Source: Candidatus Falkowbacteria bacterium
GTDB lineage: Bacteria > Patescibacteriota > Patescibacteriia > Patescibacteriales > UBA12465
Direction: 5' to 3'
DNA: 32,788 bases
NCBI GenBank assembly: GCA_037138515.1
Contig: JBAXIF010000001.1
Location: 1 to 32,788, forward strand
The notes under the pieces are model-generated. The model saw only the letters and a program-made list of their open reading frames with translations. It made no database searches and had not been told where the DNA came from. Shown in pieces: positions 22,019 through 22,550 of this stretch (position 1 is its first letter; each line of letters begins with the position of its first letter). Both the position numbers and the translations under genes were made by a program.

Positions 22019-22043
22019 TAAAAAAACCCTCTTTTGGAGGGCT
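22019..22043 (-). terminator. Terminator of small-TM cassette A
   Basis: Minus strand reads GCCCTCCAAAAGAGGGTTTTTTT, a stem ccctc/gaggg followed by a U-run. Confidence 0.7.
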
Positions 22044-22090
22044 TGCTAAAGGGTTTAAAACGATTTTTATTTAATAATGTTGCTTTGTTA

Positions 22091-22195
22091 TTAAGATAAT
22101 GACCCAGAAACGAAATAAGTAATACCAAGCATAACAACCATAACTATAACATAGTAAATCCATAATCTTTTTTCGTGCTTAGCGGCATTCTTCAT
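22091..22195 (-). CDS. 34-aa single-TM mini-protein, cassette A; not in the ORF track
   Basis: ATG 22195 to TAA 22093-22091. Sequence: MKNAAKHEKRLWIYYVIVMVVMLGITYFVSGSLS. It has a dedicated promoter and terminator and is a paralog of 22364-22477. Confidence 0.6.
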   Translation of the reverse strand: MKNAAKHEKRLWIYYVIVMVVMLGITYFVSGSLS

Positions 22196-22249
22196 AATTA
22201 CACTTTTTTGTTTTTATTCTTAAAGGTACGATTCAATTTAACTGGATCA

Positions 22250-22278
22250 ATATTAACATAAAAGAATATATGCGTCAA
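22250..22278 (-). promoter_or_regulatory. Near-consensus promoter of cassette A
   Basis: Minus strand reads TTGACG (22278-22273), a 17-nt spacer ending in TGT, then TAATAT (22255-22250). Confidence 0.65.
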
Positions 22279-22296
22279 CAGATAGTTAGTTATAAT

Positions 22297-22324
22297 AAAA
22301 AAACCCTTTTTTTGAAGGGTTTTA
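22297..22324 (-). terminator. Terminator of small-TM cassette B
   Basis: Minus strand reads AAAACCCTTCAAAAAAAGGGTTTTTTT, a stem ccctt/aaggg followed by a U-run. Confidence 0.7.
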
Positions 22325-22363
22325 AAGGTTTTATACGATGTTTTTTAACTCAATAATGGGATA

Positions 22364-22477
22364 TTAGGAAAGAACCTGGGAGACAACCGCTAAAACTACG
22401 ATAAATAATCCATAATACATCCAAAGTTTACTTTCCTTAGTTTTGTTTTCTTTGCTTACTGTTGTTGCTTCGCTCAT
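22364..22477 (-). CDS. 37-aa single-TM mini-protein, cassette B; not in the ORF track
   Basis: ATG 22477 to TAA 22366-22364. Sequence: MSEATTVSKENKTKESKLWMYYGLFIVVLAVVSQVLS. It shares the K-LW-(I/M)-YY-TM layout with cassette A. Confidence 0.6.
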   Translation of the reverse strand: MSEATTVSKENKTKESKLWMYYGLFIVVLAVVSQVLS

Positions 22478-22521
22478 GACTGTGTTTTGTGTTTGATTTA
22501 AGATTCGATTTAATTAAGATA

Positions 22522-22550
22522 ATTGTATCACAAAACATAATATCTGTCAA
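22522..22550 (-). promoter_or_regulatory. Consensus promoter of cassette B
   Basis: Minus strand reads TTGACA (22550-22545), a 17-nt spacer ending in TGA, then TACAAT (22527-22522). Confidence 0.7.

What the first reader, a model, noticed from the sequence alone, without database searches (positions are those of the whole stretch)
22019..22550. Tandemly duplicated promoter, leader, mini-ORF and terminator cassettes encoding 34/37-aa single-TM peptides
Two cassettes of about 270 bp in the same orientation each carry four elements. First, a near-consensus extended -10 promoter (TTGACG-17-TAATAT and TTGACA-17-TACAAT). Second, a leader of about 45-55 nt sharing TTAAAT(T/C)GAATC. Third, a short ORF with the layout: charged N-tail, LW(I/M)YY, a hydrophobic helix of about 18 residues, and a short polar end. 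Fourth, homologous 3' UTRs ending in GC-hairpin plus U-run terminators. Neither ORF has an SD and neither appears in the ORF track. Strongly expressed, duplicated, tiny hydrophobic peptides in an accessory stretch next to a TA module resemble type I toxin families. Alternatively they are abundant small membrane subunits. Either way the locus is unannotated coding potential.
Basis: partly seen in the sequence, partly recalled or inferred. Interest (0 to 1): 0.65.

Follow-up and report, generated by a model that had tools for sequence, protein, structure and literature searches.

The report
Two unannotated small membrane-peptide genes
Two neighbouring mini-genes that gene callers missed each encode a tiny single-pass membrane peptide of a previously undescribed family, found so far only in a small group of Patescibacteria; they are real coding genes, but nothing tested here shows they are toxins.

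Summary
On the minus strand of 22017-22550 lie two homologous ~275-bp cassettes. Each has a sigma-70 extended -10 promoter, an A-rich leader without a Shine-Dalgarno (SD) site, a 37- or 34-codon ORF, a conserved 3'-UTR box and an intrinsic terminator.

The window is a freshwater Patescibacteria (CPR) MAG contig. Single homologous cassettes sit at the same place, just upstream of the same SDR gene, in two related genomes (L003, L055). Other relatives have an empty site there.

The ORF is the best-conserved part of the cassette. Between L003 and L055, 4 of 13 substitutions are non-synonymous against 9.5 expected (P=0.001), all hydrophobic-to-hydrophobic, and the other two frames are closed. The peptides share (K/H)E(S/K)(K/R)LWxYY followed by a 19-residue hydrophobic helix, with all charge in the N-tail.

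No Pfam, NCBIfam, PADLOC, PDB, Rfam or large-database relative exists beyond one two-member cluster.

The type I toxin reading is not supported:
- there is no positionally conserved antisense promoter;
- the mRNAs are no more structured than shuffled sequence;
- there is no room for a separate antitoxin gene.

It is not excluded either. Copy number varies (0, 1 or 2), deletion remnants occur, and no usable RNA data exist.

Verdict: a genuine new small-membrane-protein family of modest interest.

The parts
22522..22550 (-). Promoter of cassette A: TTGACA, 17-nt spacer, TACAAT, with a TG extension (TGaTACAAT)
   Evidence: 11/12 match, TG present. The same hexamers and spacing are conserved in L003 and L055. 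The hexamers are unchanged in the X2 strain.
22478..22515 (-). Leader A, about 38 nt from the inferred start site. It is A-rich, has no SD, is unstructured, and contains TTAAATCGAATC.
   Evidence: The start site is inferred from the -10 position and has not been mapped.
22364..22477 (-). ORF A, 37 aa: MSEATTVSKENKTKESKLWMYYGLFIVVLAVVSQVLS. Single-pass membrane peptide.
   Evidence: It is homologous to ORF B and to the L003 and L055 peptides.
22328..22342 (-). 3'-UTR box A (AACATCGTATAAAAC), a copy of the consensus AAAAYCGTWTHAAAC
   Evidence: The box occurs only in the cassettes.
22293..22323 (-). Intrinsic terminator A (AAAACCCTT-CAAAAA-AAGGGTTTT plus U-run)
22250..22278 (-). Promoter of cassette B: TTGACG, 17-nt spacer, TAATAT, with a TG extension
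   Evidence: 9/12 match, TG present. It aligns with promoter A and with the L003 and L055 promoters.
22196..22243 (-). Leader B, about 48 nt. It is A-rich, has no SD, and contains TTAAATTGAATC.
   Evidence: The start site is inferred.
22091..22195 (-). ORF B, 34 aa: MKNAAKHEKRLWIYYVIVMVVMLGITYFVSGSLS. Single-pass membrane peptide.
   Evidence: The X2 strain carries it with one change (A4V). A second X2 contig carries V-to-I, I, A and L changes plus 2 synonymous changes.
22053..22067 (-). 3'-UTR box B (AAAATCGTTTTAAAC)
22017..22044 (-). Intrinsic terminator B (AAGCCCTC-CAAAA-GAGGGTTT plus U-run). Relative to terminator A it carries a compensatory T/A to C/G change in the stem.
22001..22009 (-). 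Extended -10 element (TGaTATAAT) for the downstream SDR gene. It follows the last cassette terminator in all three genomes. It is context, not part of the repeat unit.
   Evidence: TTATGATATAAT is conserved in the window, L003 and L055.

Best explanation
Each cassette is an autonomous single-gene unit. An extended -10 sigma-70 promoter drives a roughly 225-nt mRNA. Its short, A-rich, unstructured leader lacks an SD, which is the normal leader type in this genome, and lets ribosomes load directly on a 34-46 codon ORF. A GC hairpin with a U-run then ends the transcript.

The product is a single-pass membrane peptide. A Lys/Arg/Glu/Thr-rich N-tail of 10-17 residues stays in the cytoplasm, as the positive-inside rule predicts. 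A conserved juxtamembrane motif, (K/H)E(S/K)(K/R)-LW-x-YY, sits at the inner interface. A uniformly hydrophobic helix of about 19 residues spans the membrane, and 1-11 polar residues face outward.

The two window genes are old paralogues (33% aa identity). They belong to a new accessory family restricted to one lineage of Patescibacteria.

I infer that the peptide is a non-lytic small membrane protein that binds or modulates a membrane partner through its conserved juxtamembrane motif. I do not think it is a classical type I toxin.

Shown: the anatomy, the homology, purifying selection on the protein frame, and the variable presence. Inferred: transcription, translation, topology and role.
For: Anatomy and tandem homology.

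Orthologous single cassettes sit at the same site in L003 and L055, with conserved promoter, ORF frame, 3'-UTR box and terminator.

Coding evidence:
- Between L003 and L055 the ORF is 88.5% identical. The leader is 68%, the 3' UTR 74%, the SDR gene 84% and the 164-aa gene 77%.
- Mismatches by codon position are 4/2/9.
- 4 of 13 substitutions are non-synonymous against 9.5 expected, P=0.001. The same changes give 9/12 and 10/12 non-synonymous in the other two frames, which contain stops.
- All amino-acid changes are conservative: L to F, V to I, A to V. Strain variants add V23I and S39Y in X10, and A4V plus V to I/I/A/L in X2.

Membrane helix: the best 19-residue window scores 2.05-2.28 on the Kyte-Doolittle scale. 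The N-tail holds 4 K/R and the C-tail none. AlphaFold gives one helix, residues 3-39, with pLDDT 93 in the core.

The missing SD is normal for this genome.

The mRNA is unstructured apart from the terminator, z = +0.73 and +0.84, which suits direct translation.

Accessory status: the site is empty in L056-58, copy number is 1 or 2, and deletion remnants exist.
Against: There is no transcript, ribosome or peptide evidence. The only metatranscriptomes from the source sample hold essentially nothing from this genome.

Only four full-length cassettes from three genomes were recovered, and the selection test rests on one pair.

The role is inferred from architecture alone. No partner is identified, and the conserved position next to the 164-aa membrane protein and the SDR may simply reflect common descent.

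The conserved 3'-UTR box is unexplained. So is the very low divergence of cassette B in the X2 strain, 2.3% against 11.5% in flanking genes (Fisher P=4e-8). Both hint at an RNA-level function this model does not need.

Tandem duplication, patchy distribution and promoter- or ORF-destroying deletions are also what a toxin gene would show.
Confidence: 0.6

Rival explanations
1. Type I toxin-antitoxin modules. The peptides are membrane-damaging toxins whose translation is held in check by an unrecognised antisense or trans-acting small RNA, possibly acting at the conserved 3'-UTR box. The tandem copies would then be duplicated addiction or defence modules.
For: - The peptides are small and hydrophobic (34-46 aa) with charged tails.
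- The window carries a tandem duplication.
- Presence is patchy at 0, 1 or 2 copies.
- Variants exist in which the promoter plus 27 codons (X17) or codons 10-37 (X2) are deleted.
- The cassette is self-contained and inserted in an otherwise tight operon.
- A conserved 3'-UTR box is unique to the cassette.
- Cassette B is unusually conserved at the nucleotide level, synonymous sites included, in the X2 strain. Constraint on both strands would produce this.
- Three of the four peptides give weak matches to a PHROG holin profile, E = 1e-3 to 0.14.
Against: - Antisense promoter-like sites are all 9/12 chance-level matches, and they sit at different positions in the four cassettes.
- About 45 nt separates the units, which leaves no room for a separate sRNA gene.
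- The mRNAs are less folded than shuffled sequence. Type I toxin mRNAs typically have long structured 5' UTRs that hide the start site (established knowledge of hok, fst, tisB and aapA1).
- A near-consensus promoter with an open leader would be lethal for a toxin without tight control.
- The helix is uniformly hydrophobic with aromatic belts and no polar face.
- Synonymous sites diverge freely between L003 and L055.
- No Pfam, NCBIfam, PADLOC or Rfam toxin family matches.
Confidence: 0.2
2. Non-coding small RNAs. The promoter-to-terminator units would make roughly 225-nt regulatory RNAs, and the ORFs would be incidental.
For: - Promoter, 3'-UTR box and terminator are conserved.
- Neither ORF has an SD.
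- Gene callers skipped the window ORFs.
- One X2 contig keeps promoter, leader and terminator but lacks most of ORF A.
Against: - The ORF is the most conserved segment and the leader the least.
- Substitutions are biased to the third codon position and mostly synonymous, P=0.001.
- Only one frame is open in all four copies.
- Hydrophobic character is kept at 33-36% aa identity.
- Fold energy shows no excess, and RNAalifold finds no supported consensus structure beyond A-run/U-run pairing.
Confidence: 0.04
3. Leader-peptide transcription attenuator. Translation of the Trp-x-Tyr-Tyr ORF would control read-through of the terminator into the downstream SDR operon.
For: - A short ORF followed by a terminator lies directly upstream of the SDR in three genomes.
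- The W-x-Y-Y codons are conserved.
- Rfam gives sub-threshold matches to Phe_leader (28 bits, gathering threshold 55) and Trp_leader (21 bits, threshold 41).
- RNAalifold pairs the 3'-UTR box with the 3' arm of the terminator.
Against: - The Rfam scores are far below threshold and rest on the terminator.
- A separate conserved TGaTATAAT promoter follows the terminator.
- Cassette A is followed by cassette B, not by a structural gene.
- The whole 34-46 codon hydrophobic ORF is under selection, not just a few codons.
- The distance from stop codon to box varies from 4 to 23 nt.
- There is no stable alternative fold.
Confidence: 0.03
4. Phage-derived holin-like or superinfection-exclusion peptide retained in the chromosome.
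For: - L003, L055 and ORF B give weak matches to phrog_6116 (holin). L003 and L055 also match phrog_25291.
- The gene has an accessory, variable distribution.
Against: - The E-values (1e-3 to 0.14) are typical of matches driven by transmembrane composition, and ORF A has no match.
- The loci hold no endolysin or other phage genes.
- IMG/VR viral contigs, GenBank phages and plasmids give no homologue.
Confidence: 0.05

Closest known systems
Bacterial small single-pass membrane proteins under 50 aa, such as E. coli AcrZ, MgtS, PmrR and YohP (named from my own knowledge)
   Same: They share the size, a single hydrophobic helix, a charged juxtamembrane tail and their own single-gene transcription unit. 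They are also routinely missed by gene callers and are often restricted to one lineage.
   Different: There is no sequence relationship. The host is a Patescibacteria organism. No partner or inducing condition is known. The tandem paralogues and the conserved 3'-UTR box are not typical.
Type I toxins with a cis-antisense antitoxin, such as Fst/RNAII, TxpA/RatA, BsrG/SR4, Ldr/Rdl and Ibs/Sib (named from my own knowledge)
   Same: They share a peptide of about 30-50 aa with one helix and charged ends. They also share tandemly repeated loci, variable copy number between strains, and location in variable regions.
   Different: No conserved antisense promoter was found, and the mRNA leader is unstructured. 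The helix is uniformly hydrophobic, and no family model matches.
Phage holin family phrog_6116
   Same: Both have a charged N-terminal stretch followed by one helix. Three of the four peptides give weak profile matches over the same profile region.
   Different: The matches are not significant. There is no lysis-gene context and no viral homologue.
Amino-acid operon leader peptides (Rfam Phe_leader RF01859, Trp_leader RF00513)
   Same: Both have a short ORF followed by an intrinsic terminator upstream of a gene, with aromatic codons present.
   Different: The scores are about half the gathering threshold. The downstream gene has an independent promoter. The ORF is long, hydrophobic and under selection, and no antiterminator fold is found.

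Membership tests
Type I toxin-antitoxin system | Small (under 60 aa) hydrophobic membrane peptide | tested here: met
   The peptides are 34-46 aa with one helix.
Type I toxin-antitoxin system | Antitoxin small RNA encoded antisense to or beside the toxin gene | tested here: inconclusive
   Only chance-level (9/12) antisense promoter-like sites were found, at non-homologous positions in the four cassettes. There is no spare intergenic room. No RNA-seq data cover the locus.
Type I toxin-antitoxin system | Toxin mRNA folded so that translation initiation is blocked (structured 5' UTR or 5'-3' pairing) | tested here: not met
   Fold z-scores are +0.73 and +0.84. The leaders are open and A-rich. 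No supported consensus structure was found.
Type I toxin-antitoxin system | Sequence membership in a described toxin or antitoxin family | tested here: not met
   Pfam, NCBIfam, PADLOC and Rfam give no match at or near threshold.
Type I toxin-antitoxin system | Toxicity when the peptide is over-expressed | not testable with these tools
   This needs an expression experiment.
Small bacterial membrane proteins (generic kind) | ORF conserved in frame and under purifying selection | tested here: met
   4 of 13 substitutions are non-synonymous against 9.5 expected, P=0.001. There is a third-position bias, and the other frames are closed.
Small bacterial membrane proteins (generic kind) | One transmembrane helix with a positive-inside charge distribution | tested here: met
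   Kyte-Doolittle scores are 2.05-2.28 over 19 residues. All K/R residues are in the N-tail. AlphaFold gives a single helix.
Small bacterial membrane proteins (generic kind) | Evidence of transcription and translation | not testable with these tools
   Metatranscriptomes from the source sample contain almost nothing from this genome.
Leader-peptide attenuator (Phe/Trp leader type) | Match to the RNA family model, alternative terminator/antiterminator folds, and no separate promoter for the regulated gene | tested here: not met
   Scores are 28 and 21 bits against thresholds of 55 and 41. No alternative fold is found. A conserved TGaTATAAT follows the terminator.
Phage holin (phrog_6116) | Significant profile match and a lysis-cassette context | tested here: not met
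   E-values are 1e-3 to 0.14 for three of four peptides and none for ORF A. There are no phage genes nearby and no viral homologues.

The most novel reading that the evidence does not exclude
The cassette could be a self-contained promoter-peptide-terminator minigene that duplicates and decays within variable regions of Patescibacteria genomes. It would encode the first type I-like membrane toxin family of this phylum. The cassette-specific 3'-UTR box would be the handle for an RNA or protein antidote that has not yet been seen.
Probability: 0.15. Interest if true: 0.6.

Novelty: new member of a known kind. Interest (0 to 1): 0.35.

Why it matters
Patescibacteria have tiny genomes in which a large share of genes have no known function, and their small proteins are essentially unexplored. 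This locus gives a clean case with comparative support. The gene family is invisible to standard annotation: it was not called on the source contig, and only one two-member cluster exists among about 15 billion predicted proteins. Its signals are well defined and its peptide motif is conserved.

If the peptides bind a membrane partner, they point to a regulatory layer in organisms that cannot yet be manipulated genetically. If they turn out to be toxins, they would extend type I systems to this phylum.

In practical terms, the result shows that ORFs without an SD behind extended -10 promoters should be searched for systematically in these genomes.

Tried and rejected
Searches for further family members:
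- Exact-sequence look-ups of both peptides found nothing on record.
- A profile search of 5.8 billion clustered proteins and a full HMMER scan of 1.84 billion representatives returned only P0001, the L003 peptide, plus one spurious hit.
- SDR-anchored scans of genome and metagenome contigs gave many SDR relatives, but only L003 carried a cassette.
- Contexts of 164-aa-protein homologues gave L055 (one cassette) and L056-58 (empty site). Contexts of NUDIX homologues gave none.
- An nhmmer cassette profile run over all fetched loci found no extra or degenerate copies.
- IMG/VR by peptide pattern and by box-plus-terminator pattern, GenBank phages and PLSDB plasmids all gave nothing.

Family libraries:
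- Pfam and NCBIfam gave only sub-threshold, mutually inconsistent hits (DUF5964, DUF2976, CLC_0170), which I rejected as transmembrane-composition matches.
- PADLOC and PDB gave none.
- Rfam gave none at gathering threshold.

RNA evidence: three metatranscriptomes from the source sample do not cover the genome. The 'RNA-Seq cDNA' run X17 holds only a deletion-variant contig that cannot be told apart from DNA.

Other checks:
- 5'-3' UTR pairing appeared in the ORF B fold only and is AU-only, so I did not accept it.
- No terminal repeats or target duplications suggest transposition. The only repeats are the terminators themselves.
- The literature search found nothing on type I systems or small membrane proteins in this phylum.

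Full report
**Observation**

Read on the minus strand, window 22550-22017 holds two head-to-tail units of about 275 bp.

Unit A:
- Promoter TTGACA, 17-nt spacer, TACAAT, preceded by TG. This is an 11/12 match.
- A leader of about 38 nt.
- A 37-codon ORF at 22477-22364.
- A GC hairpin with a U-run at 22323-22293.

Unit B:
- Promoter TTGACG, 17-nt spacer, TAATAT, with TG.
- A leader of about 48 nt.
- A 34-codon ORF at 22195-22091.
- A terminator at 22044-22017.

The units align along their whole length. They share the -35/-10 frame, TTAAAT(C/T)GAATC in the leader, the codons for (K/R)LW(M/I)YY, a 3'-UTR block and the terminator. One stem position of the terminator has changed on both sides. Three terminators, including that of the upstream NUDIX gene, lie in register 272-277 nt apart. 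Terminator-like sites exceed the shuffled expectation, 3 against 0.8.

**Source and setting**

The window is part of contig CAZGXP010000001.1 of MAG GCA_964529895.1, from a freshwater metagenome. The gene calls on record skip the 630-bp gap that holds the cassettes.

Relatives of the flanking genes are labelled Patescibacteria or Falkowbacteria. The genes around the cassettes are typical of that group: giant surface proteins, a pilin-like protein, NUDIX hydrolases, an SDR, and a MntA/HepT pair at 20077-20692.

Only about 4-6 of 24 genes in the window have a recognisable SD. The rest have A/T-rich upstream regions like those of the two small ORFs. The missing SD is therefore not evidence against translation. 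Promoter A is one of about seven matches of 11/12 or better in 32.8 kb.

**Relatives of the cassette**

Two further genomes carry one homologous cassette at the same place, immediately upstream of the orthologous SDR and downstream of the orthologue of the 164-aa membrane protein:
- L003, a 546-kb contig, encodes a 45-aa peptide, MNTTTETTMRKNKESRLWLYYAVAMAIILSVVYLVSQASNVPMMG.
- L055 encodes a 46-aa peptide.

Several features are conserved across all four copies:
- the promoter hexamers, spacing and TG;
- the ORF frame;
- a 15-nt 3'-UTR box, AAAAYCGTWTHAAAC;
- the terminator;
- a TGaTATAAT element that serves the SDR, present after the last cassette terminator in all three genomes.

In L056-58 the 156-aa gene abuts the SDR with a 9-nt gap and there is no cassette.

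Other SDR or NUDIX relatives sit in different contexts without a cassette. A cassette profile finds no further copy in 535 kb of fetched loci. The gene is therefore accessory, with 0, 1 or 2 copies.

**Coding or not**

Between L003 and L055 the ORF is the best-conserved segment of the locus:

| Segment | Identity |
|---|---|
| Small ORF | 88.5% |
| Promoter | 86.7% |
| SDR gene | 84.2% |
| 164-aa gene | 76.9% |
| 3' UTR | 74% |
| Leader | 68% |

- Mismatches by codon position are 4/2/9, the pattern also seen in the SDR (23/12/90).
- Of 13 substitutions in the 45 shared codons, 4 change the amino acid (L19F, V23I, A26V, L29F).
- Re-placing the same substitution types at random gives 9.5 non-synonymous on average. 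Only 0.1% of trials reach 4 or fewer, and 36% create a stop.
- In the other two frames, 9/12 and 10/12 changes are non-synonymous, and stops are present.

Strain-level variants agree with this:
- X10 against L003 shows one synonymous change, V23I and S39Y.
- X2 against ORF B shows A4V.
- A second B-like X2 contig shows V to I, V to I, V to A and V to L plus two synonymous changes.

A and B are only 33% identical to each other and 35-36% identical to L003. They still keep the motif and the hydrophobic run.

I conclude with high confidence (about 0.9) that these are protein-coding genes. The non-coding-RNA alternative named in the finding's own refutation test is not met.

**The peptide**

The best 19-residue window scores 2.05-2.28 on the Kyte-Doolittle scale and starts at the conserved LW. 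All four K/R residues lie in the N-tail and none after the helix. AlphaFold on the three-sequence alignment gives one helix spanning residues 3-39, with pLDDT 93 in the membrane core.

The helix has Tyr residues at both ends and no polar face. The most conserved element is juxtamembrane, (K/H)E(S/K)(K/R)LWxYY. That placement suggests a specific contact at the inner membrane surface rather than pore formation. This last step is inference.

**Known families**

- Pfam and NCBIfam gave only weak, mutually inconsistent sub-threshold hits.
- PADLOC gave none, PDB none, and Rfam none at gathering threshold.
- PHROG gives weak matches to a holin profile for three of the four peptides, E = 1e-3 to 0.14. 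I treat these as composition-driven.
- Among 5.8 billion clustered proteins and 1.84 billion representatives, the only relative is the unnamed two-member cluster formed by the L003 and L055 peptides.
- Viral contigs, phage genomes and plasmids hold nothing.

**Type I toxin test**

The small hydrophobic peptide, the tandem copies and the variable presence all fit a type I toxin. Several other things do not:
- Antisense promoter-like sites are 9/12 chance-level matches at non-homologous positions.
- The units are separated by only about 45 nt.
- The inferred mRNAs fold no better than shuffled sequence, z = +0.73 and +0.84.
- RNAalifold finds only A-run/U-run pairing.

A near-consensus promoter feeding an open leader is the opposite of how type I toxin mRNAs are normally kept silent. 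That point rests on established knowledge of hok, fst, tisB and aapA1.

I therefore do not file the locus as type I TA, though I leave it about 0.2. My reasons for keeping it open:
- A 15-nt 3'-UTR box is unique to the cassette.
- Cassette B and the SDR promoter are only 2.3% diverged in the X2 strain, against 11.5% in flanking genes (P=4e-8). This could be a recombination tract or constraint at the nucleotide level.
- Two low-depth contigs from other samples show destructive deletions. The X2 contig joins 22451 to 22041, so ORF A is cut after nine codons and runs straight into a terminator. The X17 contig on L003 skips 5654-5838, removing the promoter and 27 codons. Each rests on a single assembled contig.

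**Attenuator test**

Sub-threshold Rfam matches to Phe and Trp leaders and the conserved W-x-Y-Y codons raised this idea. I reject it for four reasons:
- A separate conserved promoter follows the terminator.
- Cassette A precedes cassette B rather than a structural gene.
- The entire hydrophobic ORF is under selection.
- No alternative fold is evident.

**Expression**

The source sample has three small metatranscriptomes. None covers the locus, and they hold almost nothing from this genome. Their silence is therefore uninformative. 'Strongly expressed' remains an inference from promoter quality.

**Verdict**

The interpretation as unannotated coding potential for duplicated single-TM peptides is supported and strengthened by comparative evidence. 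The toxin reading is neither supported nor excluded.

The most likely picture is a new accessory family of small single-pass membrane proteins, restricted to one lineage of Patescibacteria, each transcribed from its own strong promoter and translated without an SD. This is a new member of a well-known kind of gene. I rate its interest as modest, 0.35.

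Noticed in passing
window 22328-22342 and 22053-22067 (-); L003:5902-5916; L055:2851-2865: A 15-nt box, AAAAYCGTWTHAAAC, lies between the stop codon and the terminator in all four cassettes and nowhere else in the window or the 68 fetched loci. 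Its function is unknown. RNAalifold pairs it weakly with the 3' arm and U-run of the terminator.
   Followed up: partly
window 21960-22265 compared with its flanks: In the related strain of run X2, cassette B plus the SDR promoter differ at 7 of 306 positions. Flanking coding genes differ at about 11.5% (Fisher P=4e-8). This could be a recombination tract or constraint at the nucleotide level.
   Followed up: partly
window 22100-22198, 22403-22441, 22508-22562 (X2 contigs): The X2 metagenome holds several further cassette-like contigs: a B-like ORF at 83% identity, an A-like copy with a conserved promoter and LWMYY core but a diverged leader, and promoter-only matches. The family is therefore larger than the four copies recovered. 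The contig sequences could not be retrieved.
   Followed up: partly
window 20077-20692 (-): A MntA (nucleotidyltransferase) / HepT (HEPN RNase) type VII toxin-antitoxin pair lies here, with an 11/12 promoter at 20740. It is absent from the otherwise syntenic L055-L058 loci, so it is an insertion in this genome.
   Followed up: partly
window 20762-25773 compared with L055-L058: A conserved backbone of DUF1294, the 164-aa membrane protein, the SDR, a MutT-like NUDIX (missing from L056-L058) and an IMPDH-like gene is shared with other Patescibacteria. The window carries extra inserts: a pilin-like gene plus a 119-aa gene, a second NUDIX at 22594-23025, the second cassette, and the TA pair. This region is a local hot spot of gene gain.
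   Followed up: partly
window 1-6610 (-) and 27271-32724 (-): There are giant ORFs at both ends of the window. One of more than 2203 aa runs off the left end. The other is part of a 2966-aa protein with Big_13 repeats, according to the source contig's gene calls.
   Followed up: no
window 15187-15528 (+): This is the only plus-strand gene (113 aa, no family assigned). Metatranscriptome X3 contains a 153-nt contig that is 91% identical to 15191-15343, so a homologue in a related organism is transcribed in the source sample.
   Followed up: no
window, all gene starts: Only about 4-6 of 24 genes have a clear SD (AAGGAGG at 7308, 8101 and 23633). Most starts sit behind A/T-rich leaders without an SD, so gene finders that weight ribosome-binding sites will under-call short genes in this genome.
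   Followed up: partly
window 23036-23530 (-): This 164-aa protein has an N-terminal membrane helix and a Cys-containing C-terminal domain (CDCEKTF...CAYANSVFGECVPE). It matches no Pfam family. It is conserved in about a dozen Patescibacteria lineages and usually sits directly upstream of the SDR.
   Followed up: partly
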